The notes under the pieces: model-generated
The model's input: only the letters and a program-made list of their open reading frames with translations
Databases searched by the model: none
What the model was told of the DNA's origin: nothing
Program-made: the position numbers and the translations under genes
Source: a bacterium
GTDB lineage: Bacteria > Patescibacteriota > Minisyncoccia > Phycocordibacterales > Zambryskibacteraceae
DNA length: 64,000 nucleotides
Reading direction: 5' to 3'
NCBI GenBank assembly: GCA_030649135.1
Contig: JAUSGI010000008.1
Coordinates: 32,001-96,000, forward strand
Shown here: positions 34,488 through 36,771 of the stretch, one piece after another
How the letters are laid out: each line of letters starts with the position of its first letter
Numbering within the stretch: the stretch's first letter is position 1

Positions 34488-34535
34488 TATTTTCTTGATT
34501 CCTCGTCCCTTTTTCGTTATTGTTTCTTTGTTAAA

Positions 34536-34607
34536 GGCCTCATCGTCTAGCGGCTAGGACACAGCCTTCTCAAGGCTGGAACCGGGGTTCGATTCCCCGT
34601 GAGGTCA
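34536..34607 (+). tRNA. tRNA-Glu (anticodon CTC)
   Basis: GGCCTCATCGTCTAGCGGCTAGGACACAGCCTTCTCAAGGCTGGAACCGGGGTTCGATTCCCCGTGAGGTCA. Cloverleaf with 7-nt anticodon loop TTCTCAA, U33 and A37. CCA is not encoded. Confidence 0.85.
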
Positions 34608-34744
34608 TACGAGCGGAAAGCACATGAACTGCTTCATGTGCGGGCGAAGTATGAAGACGGAAGCATATTTTTCTATCAAGAAAAATAGCTGAGTCCGGGG
34701 CTGGAAAATCTGCGAGTGGCGACGAGCAGATTATTGTGGCTCAC

Positions 34745-34767
34745 ATAGATTTGCATGCGAAGCATAC
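34745..34767 (+). repeat. 23-bp direct repeat, copy 1 (atagatttgcatgcgaagcatac)
   Basis: Second copy at 35493-35515 with 1 mismatch. Both are followed by atacaattt-like sequence. It contains a TTGCAT/TTGAAT -35-like hexamer. Confidence 0.6.
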
Positions 34768-34791
34768 GTTATTGGTATACAATTTGTACAT

Positions 34792-35199
34792 ATGACCTAC
34801 CTAAGCTACTTAATGGGAGCAGACAATATTGAGGATAAAGAGCTTACTGATTTGGGTATTAGTATTGAGGAGAAAAAGGCTGATGGAGACAGAACACTAA
34901 AGGTTCCAGATGAAAAGTTGAACGGGTACATTGAGTTAATGAAAACCAAGCTGAATAATGGCTTTTGGAATGAGATGGTTGGAGAAAGGGAGATCATCTT
35001 TGTTTTCAAGCTAAAAGATGGCTCAATCAAAGAATATAGGCTTTCACCTGAAAATGAGCAAGAAATTGATAACTTGTGTGCTGAACTGAATAACGAGCTA
35101 CCAGAGAAAACAGTAAATGTTTACAAGTACATTTCAGACAATAAGTTCTACCGTGATTTCATGATGGAACACTATGCTGATTTAATTAATAGAAAATGA
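34792..35199 (+). CDS. Hypothetical protein (135 aa), low GC
   Basis: Open frame with ATGA stop/start overlap to the next ORF. No recognised domain. Confidence 0.5.
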   Translation: MTYLSYLMGADNIEDKELTDLGISIEEKKADGDRTLKVPDEKLNGYIELMKTKLNNGFWNEMVGEREIIFVFKLKDGSIKEYRLSPENEQEIDNLCAELNNELPEKTVNVYKYISDNKFYRDFMMEHYADLINRK

Positions 35200-35405
35200 A
35201 ATTCCCACCAGAACCAAAAACTCCTTATATTTTGGATAAAGAACAGGATAAACGCATTTTTGAAAAACTCTCCAAATTCAAGAATAAAAAGCTAACTAAA
35301 GGACAGGAGGAGCTGATTGCTTTTCTTTACACACAACTTGAGGACGACTGGAGAACACCCCTTGAGGAGTTCATAGACAAGCTACTCGGAAGCACTCAAG
35401 CCTAA
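35196..35405 (+). CDS. Hypothetical protein (69 aa), translationally coupled to upstream ORF
   Basis: ATGA overlap. Charged helical protein. A hairpin gcaggcaaactgctttgcctgc lies downstream at ~35464-35485. Confidence 0.45.
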   Translation: MKFPPEPKTPYILDKEQDKRIFEKLSKFKNKKLTKGQEELIAFLYTQLEDDWRTPLEEFIDKLLGSTQA

Positions 35406-35492
35406 CAAAGAACTCTACAAAGGGTTTTGAATCTGATATCGTTAGGGTCACAAAATGTGTAAAGCAGGCAAACTGCTTTGCCTGCGGACATT

Positions 35493-35515
35493 ATAGATTT
35501 GAATGCGAAGCATAC
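35493..35515 (+). repeat. 23-bp direct repeat, copy 2 (atagatttgaatgcgaagcatac)
   Basis: See copy 1. Followed ~40 nt later by a strong terminator hairpin. Confidence 0.6.
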
Positions 35516-35552
35516 AATTTTTACCTAAAATAATTCCTTATTTATCAATACA

Positions 35553-35590
35553 CAAAAAGCCCGATTGCTCGGGCTTTTTGTGTATTCGAG
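35553..35590. terminator. Bidirectional rho-independent terminator
   Basis: aaaaagcccgattgctcgggcttttt is a hairpin flanked by A-tract and T-tract. Confidence 0.6.
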
Positions 35591-35603
35591 TGGCTCACAA
35601 TTA

Positions 35604-35693
35604 CTTCTTCCCCTCCTCACATCCACAGGCACAAGTACCATTTTCGGTGGTGTGAACATGGTCGCACTTGGAACATTTAGTTTCTTCTGGCAT
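35604..35693 (-). CDS. Tiny Cys/His-rich peptide (30 aa)
   Basis: Hand translation of the minus strand gives MPEETKCSKCDHVHTTENGTCACGCEEGKK. The terminator lies immediately downstream. It is below the ORF-track size cutoff. Confidence 0.3.
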
Positions 35694-35974
35694 AGTATAG
35701 TTGTTTAGTATTCTAATATATTCGCCGACCTTTTAAGTATAATATTTTATAGAGAGCAAAGCAATCCGTTTTTTAGTTGTGTATACCTGTATTTTTAAAA
35801 AATTCTTCCGGCGAAAAAGAGAAAACATGGAAAGGCGGAACGGGGCGAGGGCGGGGCGCCTAGTCCACGCGTGCGAAGTGGGTTCGCGCATGGGTTAGAA
35901 TATCCTCACAACTTGATTTTTATATAAAATCGTGTTATTTTGTGTTTAGATAAGTCAAGAGGGGGAAATCTTCC

Positions 35975-36529
35975 ATGAAATCAACTTCCGCTCCAATTCG
36001 TATCACCCAGGCAACCCCAGAAGACGTACTAGGTATGCAGGAAGTCTTCTACAAGACTTGGCTCGCAACTTACCCAAATGTCGAGTACGGTATCACCGTC
36101 GAGGACATCAGGGAGCGTTGGAAAAATCGGCTCGATGATGAGTACCTTGCCAAACGGCGTGAGCAGATGGCCAATCCCCCAATCGGTGAGTTGACTTTAG
36201 CCGCTCGGGATGGAAATCTGGTGGTTGGTGTTTGCCGGGTCATCAATCTTCCCAACAAGAACCAGCTGCAGGCACTTTACGTTCTTCCCGAATATCAAGG
36301 AAGAGGTGTCGGTACCACTTTGTGGGAAGAGGGTCGTAAATTCCTTGACGCTACACGAGACATCGAGGTTTGGGTCGCAACCTACAACACCAAGGCTATC
36401 GCATTTTACCAGCATCTTGGCTTTAGAGAAACGGGAGAGACCGACCTCGACGAACACTTCAAAATGCCTATAAGTGGTAACGTTATCCCGGAGATTGGGA
36501 TGGTGTTGAAGGCAGAACCGGCATCTTAA
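35975..36529 (+). CDS. GNAT-family N-acetyltransferase
   Basis: Motif A QGRGVGTTL. AIAFYQHLGF. SD AGAGGGGG. Confidence 0.85.
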   Translation: MKSTSAPIRITQATPEDVLGMQEVFYKTWLATYPNVEYGITVEDIRERWKNRLDDEYLAKRREQMANPPIGELTLAARDGNLVVGVCRVINLPNKNQLQALYVLPEYQGRGVGTTLWEEGRKFLDATRDIEVWVATYNTKAIAFYQHLGFRETGETDLDEHFKMPISGNVIPEIGMVLKAEPAS

Positions 36530-36570
36530 TGGGTGCCGTTTTTCTTTTATTGTATAATATAGAAAATAAT

Positions 36571-36771
36571 ATGAGCCACTTGTTTCGTAGCGATAAATGT
36601 AAAAAATGCGGTGGGGATGCACCCAACTGGAAGTGTCCAAAGTGCGCTAGCACGTCGAGTGTTTTTGACCCATTACATTGGCAGAAATGTCGTTTCGGAG
36701 CAAAATATCAAGCGCAGTGCCAGAAGTGCGGTGAAGCCGAAGATAATTGCACTTGCACAATAGTTTCCTAG
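36571..36771 (+). CDS. Small Cys-rich zinc-ribbon-like protein (66 aa, 10 Cys)
   Basis: MSHLFRSDKCKKCGGDAPNWKCPKCAS...CRFGAKYQAQCQKCGEAEDNCTC. TATAAT at ~36551. Confidence 0.45.
   Translation: MSHLFRSDKCKKCGGDAPNWKCPKCASTSSVFDPLHWQKCRFGAKYQAQCQKCGEAEDNCTCTIVS

What the first reader, a model, noticed from the sequence alone, without database searches (positions are those of the whole stretch)
34610..35700. tRNA-Glu-adjacent low-GC islet: two translationally coupled unknown genes bracketed by 23-bp direct repeats, then a promoter-like repeat/terminator unit and a 30-aa Cys-rich peptide gene
atagatttgcatgcgaagcatac (34745-34767) and atagatttgaatgcgaagcatac (35493-35515) flank only the ORF pair 34792-35405 (135 aa + 69 aa, ATGA overlap). 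Each repeat contains a -35-like TTG(C/A)AT and an internal GCAT(G/A)C-GAA-GCATAC direct repeat suggestive of a regulator binding site. The second copy is followed within ~40 nt by a strong bidirectional terminator. That arrangement fits a short sRNA or an attR-like scar. It is candidate small mobile or toxin-antitoxin-like cassette at a tRNA hotspot. Neither protein resembles a known family by eye.
Basis: seen in the sequence. Interest (0 to 1): 0.55.

Follow-up and report, generated by a model that had tools for sequence, protein, structure and literature searches.

The report
Duplicated tRNA-Glu tail RNA flanks islet
One copy is intact and one is decayed, and they bracket two conserved genes of unknown function sitting in a recombination hot spot, not a toxin-antitoxin pair or a pair of promoters.

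Summary
In detail: tRNA-Glu, the 23-mers, the ATGA-coupled ORFs, the low-GC stretch and the perfect hairpin are all at the stated coordinates.

The interpretation needs revision. The 23-mer is the near-invariant 3' end of a roughly 165-nt multi-helix element. This element starts at the last bases of tRNA-Glu (CTC or TTC) in many Parcubacteria metagenome contigs. Across 25 copies, 98% of cells pair and 36 of 46 pairs show compensatory changes. No Rfam family matches.

- **Copy 1 (34603-34767)** is intact.
- **Copy 2 (35446-35515)** is a pseudo-copy with a clean internal deletion of about 99 nt, preceded by a degenerate tRNA-3'-like stretch.

Sequence similarity between relatives collapses right after the 23-mer. 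The genes between tRNA-Glu and ftsI differ in every close relative. The repeats are therefore best read as attL/attR-like scars at a tRNA-linked hot spot, although no recombinase was seen.

- **ORF1** belongs to a small uncharacterised family with a ferredoxin-like fold. The same domain occurs as an insert in LeuRS, MetRS and a class II synthetase. Its downstream partner gene varies.
- **ORF2** is a three-helix protein that elsewhere occurs without ORF1.

A toxin-antitoxin reading and a promoter/operator reading are not supported. The 30-aa peptide has no support.

The parts
34495..34523 (+). Promoter-like site for tRNA-Glu: TTGATT, 17-nt spacer, TATTGT, ending 12 nt before the tRNA
   Evidence: Read from the sequence. 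The same TTGA(t/a)(t/a)-16/17-TAT(t/c)(c/g)T arrangement lies upstream of tRNA-Glu in L036, L120 and L134. Function is inferred, not tested.
34536..34607 (+). tRNA-Glu (anticodon CTC); no CCA encoded
   Evidence: ARAGORN; Rfam tRNA 58.5 bits.
34603..34767 (+). Intact copy of the tRNA-Glu-appended structured element. It comprises a long H1 hairpin whose base pairs the tRNA's last TCA with a conserved TGA, helices P2/P2a/P2b, helices P3/P3a, and the terminal AUGC-GAA-GCAU hairpin.
   Evidence: Covariance model R1 scores 174.9 bits over the full length. Fold z-score is -4.3. Covariation is shown.
34745..34767 (+). 23-mer copy 1: the near-invariant 3' end of the element, including the terminal hairpin
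   Evidence: Mean pairwise identity among 26 copies is 0.90-0.97 here and drops to 0.40 and then 0.25-0.29 immediately downstream.
34773..34781 (+). Extended -10-like box TGgTATACA, 10 nt before the ORF1 ATG. There is no Shine-Dalgarno sequence, so the ORF1-ORF2 mRNA is probably leaderless or nearly so.
   Evidence: Sequence. Relatives have TATAAT 6-9 nt before the ORF1 start (L036, L040). Inferred, not tested.
34792..35199 (+). ORF1, 135 aa: uncharacterised conserved family with a ferredoxin-like fold. It occurs free-standing or as an insert or fusion in aminoacyl-tRNA synthetases.
35196..35405 (+). ORF2, 69 aa: a small conserved three-helix protein, translationally coupled to ORF1 by ATGA
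35399..35451 (+). Degenerate tRNA-3'-like remnant (..GGGTTTTGAATCTGATATCGTTAGGGTCA). It follows the ORF1 operon in the five related loci that carry the remnant and is truncated here by the end of ORF2.
   Evidence: 88-92% identical to L036, L040, L041 and L134. The full ~150-nt version is visible. On the - strand it reads as a 44-aa ORF that is interrupted in the window and in L134.
35446..35515 (+). Decayed second copy of the element: the 5' half of H1 joined to the 23-mer, with about 99 nt missing
   Evidence: R1 scores 37.1 bits. Positions 35448-35492 are 45/45 identical to the 5' part of the L114 element. Positions 35495-35530 are 92% identical to its 3' part and flank.
35493..35515 (+). 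23-mer copy 2
35547..35586 (.). Bidirectional intrinsic-terminator-like hairpin (18-bp perfect stem, loop TTGC, A-run and T-run). It lies between the ORF1-ORF2 unit and the convergent 30-aa ORF.
   Evidence: I3; sequence.
35601..35693 (-). 30-aa Cys-rich ORF: unsupported as a gene
   Evidence: No family hit. No tblastn match in any related locus. Not called as a gene in the independent assembly. Too short for the homology search.
35793..35869 (+). GC-rich fragment homologous to DNA that lies directly upstream of the element in L114, L078 and L089. It is a further sign of rearrangement in this spot.
   Evidence: 86% identical over 77 nt to L114; alignment.

Best explanation
The 23-bp repeats are the conserved 3' terminus of a structured element of about 165 nt. 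In a clade of Parcubacteria this element is fused to the 3' end of the tRNA-Glu gene.

**Shown**
- The element begins within the last bases of tRNA-Glu.
- It folds into H1, P2/P2a/P2b, P3/P3a and a terminal AUGC-GAA-GCAU hairpin, with abundant compensatory changes.
- It matches no Rfam family.
- The window holds one intact copy next to the tRNA. It also holds one pseudo-copy with an internal deletion of about 99 nt, preceded by a degenerate tRNA-3'-like stretch.
- Similarity between relatives ends at the 23-mer.
- The genes between tRNA-Glu and ftsI differ in every close relative.
- The two copies are not recent duplicates of each other. Their H1 stems differ by compensatory changes, and copy 2 is identical over 45 nt to the element of another lineage.

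**Inferred**
1. The tRNA promoter drives a tRNA-element co-transcript. tRNA processing then releases a stable RNA of about 160 nt, ending at the terminal hairpin, which is often followed by a T-run.
2. As with tRNA and tmRNA genes, the 3' end of this RNA gene serves as the crossover point for incoming DNA that carries its own copy of the tRNA-3'/element segment. This leaves attL-like (intact) and attR-like (decaying) direct repeats around the cargo.
3. The cargo here is ORF1-ORF2. It is transcribed from an extended -10 box just after copy 1 as a nearly leaderless mRNA, coupled through ATGA, and ended by the bidirectional hairpin at 35547-35586.
4. ORF1 is an accessory or adaptor-type domain linked to aminoacyl-tRNA synthetases rather than a toxin, antitoxin or mobility protein.
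For: **The element**
- Metagenome hits to the 23-mer core share upstream blocks with visibly covarying stems.
- RNAalifold on 10 copies gives 46 pairs, 26 of them with compensatory changes.
- On 25 model-aligned copies, 98.3% of cells pair against 72.7% in shuffles and 36-44% when partners are slid. 36 of 46 pairs change on both sides, and 0 of 500 shuffles reach the observed value.
- G-U occupies pair 122:213 in 14 of 25 copies, which places the fold on the tRNA strand.
- ARAGORN finds tRNA-Glu (CTC or TTC) abutting the element in 16 of 30 loci. Four loci (L050, L078, L089, L114) have sequence upstream of the element in which ARAGORN calls no tRNA; one (L054) carries only a tRNA 3'-end fragment upstream. 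In five more (L057, L061, L062, L126, L160) the contig ends close upstream of the element, and several of these retain only the 3' end of a tRNA.
- No Rfam match at gathering or E-value thresholds.

**The boundary**
- Mean pairwise identity is 0.97 in the last 10 nt of the 23-mer. It falls to 0.40 and then 0.25-0.29 just after it.
- L036 and L038 carry identical ORF1 and diverge exactly after GCGAAGCATAC.

**The hot spot**
- Cargo differs completely in L134, L120, L040, L041, L036/L069, L114 and L119, although ftsI and the RNR gene are conserved nearby.
- A second element copy flanking small gene sets also occurs in L041, L038/L069, L050 and L161.

**Copy 2 as a decayed foreign-type copy:**

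**Not an assembly artefact:**

**ORF1 and ORF2**
- Partner variability.
- ORF1 domain in LeuRS, MetRS and a class II aaRS.

**Transcript end**
- A T-run occurs within 20 nt after the 23-mer in 14 of 25 copies, against 22% background.
Against: - No expression data exist, so the RNA, its ends and its co-transcription with the tRNA are inferred.
- No integrase or other recombinase was found in the window islet or among about 30 proteins next to elements in other loci.
- The att-type mechanism therefore lacks its enzyme. Homologous recombination between element copies could produce the same pattern.
- The tRNA-like remnant is too degenerate to score as a tRNA. It can also be read as a short minus-strand ORF.
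- Part of the diversity downstream of the element reflects ordinary lack of synteny between distant lineages. Housekeeping genes such as tsaD and lexA follow it in some.
- The model-fitted alignment leans towards the structure. However, the independent MAFFT/RNAalifold run gave the same helices.
- Only one 64-kb window of this genome was available, so copy number per genome is unknown.
Confidence: 0.68

Rival explanations
1. First reader's regulatory reading. The 23-mers are duplicated promoters or operator sites (-35-like TTGCAT/TTGAAT plus a GCAT..GAA..GCAT binding repeat). Copy 1 drives ORF1-ORF2 and copy 2 drives a short sRNA ending at the hairpin.
For: - TTGCAT (34751-34756) lies upstream of a -10-like TATACA (34776-34781) before ORF1.
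- Copy 2 is followed 31 nt later by a strong hairpin.
Against: - Spacing is 19 nt for copy 1. For copy 2 the only -10-like hexamer is 21 nt away.
- The promoter scan reports neither site.
- The 23-mer is conserved as the end of a covarying structure next to tRNA-Glu, whatever follows. The downstream gene can be of any family, on either strand, or preceded by a T-run.
- The internal 'repeat' is simply the two arms of the terminal hairpin, which keeps pairing when it varies (L041: CTGC-GTA-GCAG).
Confidence: 0.06
2. ORF1-ORF2 is a type II toxin-antitoxin-like or otherwise self-contained selfish two-gene cassette.
For: - Two small, translationally coupled genes lie in a low-GC islet.
- In another locus the cassette between two element copies does carry a RelE/ParE-like ORF, judged by eye from its sequence (L161).
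Against: - No toxin, antitoxin or defence family hit in Pfam, PHROG, NCBIfam or PADLOC.
- ORF1 pairs with at least ten unrelated second genes.
- ORF1 also occurs as an in-frame domain of essential synthetases.
- ORF2 occurs alone beside housekeeping genes.
Confidence: 0.04
3. The element acts only at the DNA level, as a folded single-stranded recombination site in the manner of integron attC sites, and is not a functional RNA.
For: - Element copies flank small gene sets in several loci.
- Similarity ends sharply at its 3' end.
- The terminal GCGAAGC sequence is, from general knowledge, an unusually stable DNA mini-hairpin.
- G-T wobbles are tolerated in folded DNA.
Against: - The master copy is always fused in register to the tRNA-Glu 3' end on the tRNA strand, with no intervening promoter or terminator. 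It must therefore be transcribed with the tRNA.
- It is a multi-branch structure, not an imperfect palindrome.
- No IntI-like or other recombinase is nearby.
- Cargo genes lie in both orientations.
Confidence: 0.12
4. There was no site-specific event. An ordinary segmental duplication or homologous recombination between strains duplicated the tRNA-Glu/element region, and one copy is decaying. The variability is just the fast gene turnover typical of these genomes.
For: - No recombinase was found.
- The copies are long enough (57-165 nt, about 90% identical in the 3' third) to serve as substrates for homologous recombination.
- Scrambled fragments of related DNA lie nearby (35793-35869).
Against: - The H1 stems of the two copies differ at most positions with compensation. 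Copy 2 is identical to the L114 lineage over 45 nt, so it is not an in-situ duplication.
- Breakpoints recur precisely at the tRNA 3' end or at the end of the 23-mer in different lineages. This is more typical of site-specific exchange.
Confidence: 0.18

Closest known systems
Genomic islands integrated at the 3' ends of tRNA or tmRNA genes (tyrosine-integrase att sites)
   Same: - A stable-RNA gene marks the left border.
- A partial, degenerate copy of its 3' part marks the right border.
- Cargo is variable and low in GC, and the breakpoint is sharp at the end of the RNA gene.
   Different: - No integrase was found in the islet or in related loci.
- The duplicated segment includes a whole extra structured element, not just the tRNA 3' end.
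- The islet is only about 725 bp.
sRNAs processed from tRNA 3' external transcribed spacers (for example 3'ETS-leuZ of E. coli; from general knowledge)
   Same: A functional RNA would be released from the trailer of a tRNA precursor by tRNA processing enzymes.
   Different: - This element is much longer (117-255 nt) and multi-helical.
- It is conserved with covariation across many lineages.
- Its first helix pairs with the tRNA's own 3' end.
- No target or function is known.
Integron attC sites and gene cassettes
   Same: Repeated structured sites separate small, variable gene sets, and conservation is concentrated at the site's 3' end.
   Different: - The element is not an imperfect palindrome with R/L boxes.
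- No IntI or attI is present.
- Cargo lies in both orientations, sometimes with its own promoters.
- The site is tied to a tRNA gene.
Appended or inserted accessory domains of aminoacyl-tRNA synthetases (for example the Trbp111/EMAPII-type tRNA_bind domain)
   Same: - The ORF1 domain occurs both free-standing and fused within LeuRS, MetRS and a class II synthetase.
- In L016 the free ORF1 is coupled to a free tRNA_bind gene. This mirrors the ORF1-like + tRNA_bind tail of the L026 MetRS.
   Different: - There is no sequence family and no solved structure.
- The fold match is only the generic ferredoxin-like type (Cas2, CutA, EF-G domains, ACT-like).
- tRNA or ligand binding has not been shown.

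Membership tests
Any Rfam 15 RNA family | Covariance-model score at or above the family's gathering threshold | tested here: not met
   Only tRNA hits at gathering threshold in the window and 12 related loci, plus one group I intron in L016. In E-value mode on 34520-34800 and 35400-36000, nothing but tRNA-like or chance matches appeared.
Conserved structured RNA (generic criterion) | Base pairs maintained by compensatory substitutions beyond shuffled and slid controls | tested here: met
   98.3% of cells pair against 72.7% in shuffles and 36-44% when slid. 36 of 46 pairs change on both sides, and 0 of 500 shuffles reach the observed covariation score.
Conserved structured RNA (generic criterion) | Evidence of transcription and defined ends | not testable with these tools
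   No expression data are available. Co-transcription with tRNA-Glu is inferred from the 0-5 nt junction and from the promoter-like site upstream of the tRNA.
tRNA-targeting integrative island | Direct repeats made of the 3' part of the target RNA gene at both borders | tested here: met
   An intact tRNA-Glu plus element lies on the left. A degenerate tRNA-3'-like stretch plus a deleted element lies on the right. The remnant does not score as a tRNA.
tRNA-targeting integrative island | Integrase or recombinase gene adjacent to an att site | tested here: not met
   The islet holds only ORF1 and ORF2. 20 proteins flanking elements in other loci were scanned against Pfam and none is a recombinase; 10 further flanking ORFs were extracted but not scanned.
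tRNA-targeting integrative island | Occupied and empty or different states of the same site in close relatives | tested here: met
   L134, L120, L040, L041, L036/L069, L114 and L119 carry different genes between tRNA-Glu/element and ftsI or the RNR gene.
Integron (attC cassette array) | IntI tyrosine recombinase with attI, and attC imperfect palindromes with R''-L''/L'-R' boxes | tested here: not met
   No recombinase was found. The structure is a multi-branch fold tied to a tRNA, not a palindrome.
Type II toxin-antitoxin pair | Conserved pairing of the two genes | tested here: not met
   ORF2 follows ORF1 only in the window, L001 and L040, and ORF1 has many other partners. ORF2 occurs alone.
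Type II toxin-antitoxin pair | Match to a known toxin or antitoxin family or fold | tested here: not met
Sigma-70-type promoter (reading of the 23-mer) | -35 and -10 hexamers 16-18 nt apart | tested here: not met
   The scan finds no site at either 23-mer. By eye the spacers are 19 nt and 21 nt or more.
Intrinsic terminator (35547-35586) | GC-containing stem-loop followed by a T-run, here on both strands | tested here: met
   18-bp perfect inverted repeat AATACACAAAAAGCCCGA/TCGGGCTTTTTGTGTATT. The consensus scan did not list it because the T-run lies within the extended stem. Function has not been tested.

The most novel reading that the evidence does not exclude
The tRNA-Glu-appended element is a new class of functional RNA in Parcubacteria. 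It would be released from the tRNA-Glu precursor, and its gene end would also serve as a dedicated exchange site for small gene cassettes in these reduced genomes, using a recombinase encoded elsewhere. In parallel, ORF1 would define a new adaptor domain that docks varied enzymes (NUDIX, kinases, deaminases, methyltransferases) to aminoacyl-tRNA synthetases or tRNA, acting either in cis as an insert or in trans as a free protein.
Probability: 0.25. Interest if true: 0.8.

Novelty: new variant of a known kind. Interest (0 to 1): 0.6.

Why it matters
Parcubacteria and other candidate-phyla bacteria are uncultivated and have tiny genomes, and few of their non-coding RNAs have been described.

- **A new RNA candidate.** A covariation-supported element of about 165 nt, welded to tRNA-Glu and absent from Rfam, is a concrete and testable new RNA. 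Its fusion to a tRNA hints at a role in tRNA processing or in regulation from a tRNA trailer.
- **A tractable case of gene turnover.** The same element marks the edge of a hypervariable spot next to the cell-division cluster. This gives a defined example of how such genomes gain and lose genes without obvious mobile-element machinery.
- **A new synthetase-linked domain.** The ORF1 family is free-standing here but inserted at several positions in LeuRS, MetRS and a class II synthetase elsewhere, often beside NUDIX or hydrolase inserts. This points to an undescribed accessory module of the translation apparatus.

None of this has been shown experimentally.

Tried and rejected
**Searches that returned nothing useful**
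- Pfam, PHROG, NCBIfam and PADLOC scans of ORF1, ORF2, the 30-aa ORF and the 80-aa ORF: nothing significant.
- PDB sequence profile search with ORF1: nothing, best E 0.3.
- Foldseek against PDB with the ORF1 model: no hit below E 0.1.
- The AFDB50 fold library was unavailable.
- Viral contig scan for the 23-mer core: no match.
- About two thirds of the metagenome hits to the 18-base pattern were chance matches in unrelated DNA. They were discarded by their flanks.
- Literature searches found no description of a tRNA-Glu-appended RNA or of this synthetase insert.

**Identities considered for the element and rejected by eye**
- SRP RNA: no conserved GNRA-capped domain IV.
- 6S RNA: the ends are not paired.
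- RNase P RNA: the AGUCCGGGGCU resemblance to CR-I is not conserved across classes.
- Hammerhead ribozyme: the CUGAGUC sequence does not fit CUGANGA.
- T-box, tmRNA and 5S rRNA.

**Other ideas tested**
- That ORF1 is generally tRNA-adjacent. It lies within 1 kb of a tRNA in only 4 of 35 species-level loci, next to Asn or Gln tRNAs and without the element.
- That the remnant after ORF2 is a real minus-strand 44-aa gene. It is interrupted by a stop in L134 and replaced in the window, so it is treated as a remnant, though the question remains ambiguous.
Full report
**Checking the observation**

- tRNA-Glu(CTC) is at 34536-34607.
- The two 23-mers are at 34745-34767 and 35493-35515. They differ at one base, are unique in the window, and none is expected by chance.
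- ORF1 (34792-35199, 135 aa) and ORF2 (35196-35405, 69 aa) overlap by ATGA.
- GC drops to 0.30-0.39 over the pair, against about 0.5 in the flanks.
- A perfect 18-bp hairpin with A- and T-runs lies at 35547-35586.
- A 30-aa Cys-rich ORF lies on the minus strand at 35601-35693.
- An independent assembly (L167) is identical across both repeat copies.

Each 23-mer is preceded by a second repeat, a hairpin with the same loop (CTGC) and flanks but with stems that differ by compensatory changes (34617-34643 and 35461-35487, D2).

**What the 23-mer is**

A scan of metagenome contigs for the 23-mer core returned 120 stretches. About a third of them share long conserved blocks upstream of the match. 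The rest are chance hits in unrelated DNA.

In the true hits, the sequence from the 23-mer back to a tRNA-Glu gene is a single unit of 117-255 nt, typically about 165 nt. It has five parts.
- **H1.** A long hairpin whose base pairs the tRNA's last three bases (TCA) with the TGA of a conserved TGAAG.
- **P2.** A three-pair helix, GNC/GN'C, in which the middle pair takes all four Watson-Crick combinations. It closes P2a and the hairpin P2b.
- **P3.** GGGC/GCUC in one class and GGUC/GACC in another. It closes a variable hairpin, P3a.
- **A conserved single-stranded stretch.**
- **The terminal AUGC-GAA-GCAU hairpin**, which is the core of the 23-mer.

The covariation evidence is strong.
- RNAalifold on ten copies predicted 46 pairs, 26 with compensatory changes.
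- On 25 copies aligned with a covariance model built from that alignment, 98.3% of cells pair. This compares with 72.7% in column shuffles and 36-44% when partners are slid by 1-3 columns.
- 36 of 46 pairs change on both sides, and no shuffle reaches the observed covariation score.
- A G-U at one P3 pair in 14 of 25 copies puts the fold on the tRNA strand.

ARAGORN places tRNA-Glu, with either CTC or TTC anticodon, directly against the element in 16 of 30 loci. In four loci (L050, L078, L089, L114) sequence is available upstream of the element and no tRNA is called there, and L054 has only a fragment of the tRNA 3' end. In five more (L057, L061, L062, L126, L160) the contig ends close upstream. 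No Rfam family matches at gathering or permissive thresholds. The papers I could search do not describe such an element.

In the window the intact copy spans 34603-34767 (174.9 bits) and folds better than all 200 shuffles (z = -4.3).

**The second copy**

The model also hits 35446-35515, at 37 bits.
- Positions 35448-35492 are identical (45/45) to the 5' part of the element in locus L114.
- Positions 35495-35530 are 92% identical to its 3' part and flank.

Copy 2 is therefore an L114-type element that lost about 99 nt internally. Its H1 stem (CAGGCAAA) differs from that of copy 1 (CACATGAA) at most positions, so the two copies are not a recent local duplication.

Copy 2 is preceded by ..GGGTTTTGAATCTGATATCGTTAGGGTCA. 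This resembles the T-arm and acceptor end of tRNA-Glu with a short insertion. The same stretch, within a conserved segment of about 150 nt, follows the ORF1 operon in L036/L038, L040, L041 and L134. It does not score as a tRNA. On the minus strand it can be read as a 44-aa ORF, but that ORF is interrupted in L134 and replaced in the window. I treat it as a remnant.

**A boundary and a hot spot**

Among 26 distinct copies, mean pairwise identity is 0.90-0.97 across the last 20 nt of the element. It falls to 0.40 in the next ten bases and to 0.25-0.29, the random level, beyond that. L036 and L038 encode identical ORF1 proteins yet diverge exactly after GCGAAGCATAC.

Close relatives were recognised by 80-91% identical ftsI and ribonucleotide reductase genes. 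In them, the DNA between tRNA-Glu/element and those conserved genes is different each time.

| Locus | Cargo between tRNA-Glu/element and the conserved genes |
|---|---|
| L134 | two unknown ~240-aa proteins |
| L120 | one 261-aa protein |
| L040 | two unknown proteins, then ORF1-ORF2 |
| L041 | membrane protein, ORF1-methyltransferase, a second element, then three more small genes |
| L036/L069 | a 184-aa protein, ORF1-RibD_C, an element, then other genes |

A second element or pseudo-element flanking small gene sets also occurs in L041, L038/L069, L050 and L161. In L036 the left junction is at the very end of the tRNA, with the element on the right side only. In the window the left junction is at the end of the 23-mer.

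This is the pattern left by integration at the 3' end of stable-RNA genes, namely an intact target on one side and a decaying partial copy on the other. However, none of the 20 proteins scanned next to elements is a recombinase. Homologous recombination between element copies therefore remains a live alternative.

Part of the diversity downstream of the element in distant lineages is just lack of synteny. Housekeeping genes such as tsaD and lexA follow it in some.

**The two proteins**

The family is not syntenic. Across 35 species-level loci it shares no neighbours with the window. The gene that follows it, often through an ATGA overlap, differs each time. Partners seen are:
- ORF2
- RibD_C
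- SAM methyltransferases
- uridine kinase
- a deaminase
- SET
- ASCH
- a nucleotidyltransferase
- a free tRNA_bind domain

The same domain also occurs in frame inside other proteins.
- In leucyl-tRNA synthetases, at three or more different positions.
- In a methionyl-tRNA synthetase, between the anticodon-binding and tRNA_bind domains.
- In a class II synthetase. Several of these synthetase inserts lie beside a NUDIX or serine-hydrolase insert.
- Fused to NUDIX, NYN or DMP19-like domains in two-domain proteins.

ORF2 has 45 homologues and is predicted to be a three-helix protein (pLDDT 74.5), with only generic structural matches. Elsewhere it sits without ORF1, next to infB-rbfA, between hicAB and dnaG, or after rpsA. 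The pair is therefore not an obligate couple. Neither protein looks like a toxin, an antitoxin or a mobility protein.

**Expression signals (inferred)**

- A TTGATT-17-TATTGT site lies 12 nt upstream of the tRNA and recurs in relatives.
- Nothing separates the tRNA from the element, so co-transcription is the simplest reading.
- After the 23-mer, 14 of 25 copies have a T-run within 20 nt, against 22% background. This suits a transcript end at the terminal hairpin.
- ORF1 has no Shine-Dalgarno sequence. An extended -10-like TGgTATACA (34773-34781) ends 10 nt before its ATG. Relatives have TATAAT 6-9 nt before theirs. This points to a leaderless mRNA.
- The -35-like TTGCAT inside copy 1 is 19 nt from that -10. 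Copy 2 has no usable -10, and the promoter scan reports neither site.

**The peptide and other pieces**

- The 30-aa ORF has no family hit, no tblastn match in any related locus, and was not called in the independent assembly. It is unsupported.
- The 80-aa Cys-rich ORF at 36529-36771 is real. 84% identical copies lie about 1.1 kb downstream of the element in L079, L090 and L138.
- A GC-rich fragment at 35793-35869 matches DNA that sits directly upstream of the element in L114, L078 and L089. This is another sign that the region has been reshuffled.

**Verdict**

It is partly wrong: the repeats are not promoters or operators, and the genes are not a toxin-antitoxin pair.

The two most interesting results were not in the original finding.
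- A small domain family shared between free proteins and aminoacyl-tRNA synthetase inserts.

Both need expression and biochemical data before any function can be claimed.

Noticed in passing
window 34792-35199; loci L026-L031; proteins P0174-P0215: The ORF1 domain is an in-frame insert in leucyl-tRNA synthetases at three or more positions, in a methionyl-tRNA synthetase before its tRNA_bind tail, and in a class II synthetase. It often lies beside NUDIX or serine-hydrolase inserts. It is also fused to NUDIX, NYN and DMP19-like domains. Only 124 clusters exist in 1.84 billion representatives.
   Followed up: partly
L016:483-980: An element-like hit (38 bits) follows a tRNA that carries a group I intron (Rfam RF00028). 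Its first helix pairs the tRNA 3' strand CCCCCGCAACA, and CCCCCGCAACAAG is repeated at the element's 3' end. The element family may therefore extend to other tRNAs and may insert with a target duplication.
   Followed up: no
window 35793-35869: This GC-rich stretch is 86% identical to DNA lying immediately upstream of the element in L114 (and in L078 and L089), where it ends in ...CATCA joined to helix H1. It may be a further pseudo-tRNA or another structured RNA. No Rfam match.
   Followed up: partly
window 36529-36771: The 80-aa Cys-rich ORF (several CxxC pairs), coupled to the end of the GNAT gene, has 84% identical homologues about 1.1 kb downstream of the element in L079, L090 and L138. 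It is a real small gene of unknown function.
   Followed up: partly
window 34773-34794; L036:3962-3982; L040:1629-1648: ORF1 genes lack a Shine-Dalgarno sequence and start 6-10 nt after a -10-like box in several relatives, which suggests leaderless translation.
   Followed up: no
L161:7264-7530 (minus strand): The small cassette between two element copies in L161/L153 encodes an 88-aa protein that looks RelE/ParE-like by eye. It was not scanned against any family library.
   Followed up: no
L047:79-406; L054; L119:8876-9054: These loci carry tandem or partial element copies and divergent variants: two adjacent hits in L047, an element fragment joined to a 15-nt tRNA 3' end before a full copy in L054, and a divergent 25-bit form in L119. 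This points to repeated rearrangement at the site.
   Followed up: no
L036/L040/L041/L134 remnant; window 35398-35451 (minus strand): The conserved ~150-nt stretch after the ORF1 operon reads on the minus strand as a 44-aa ORF (MTLTIxDSKPFxEFFVxL...). The ORF is intact in three loci, interrupted by a stop in L134 and replaced in the window. Whether it is a gene or a remnant is unsettled.
   Followed up: partly
L048, L070, L077, L079, L098, L132, L153/L161: tRNA-Glu with the element often lies near tRNA-Ser(CGA) and tRNA-Val(GAC). Only tRNA-Glu carries the appended element.
   Followed up: no
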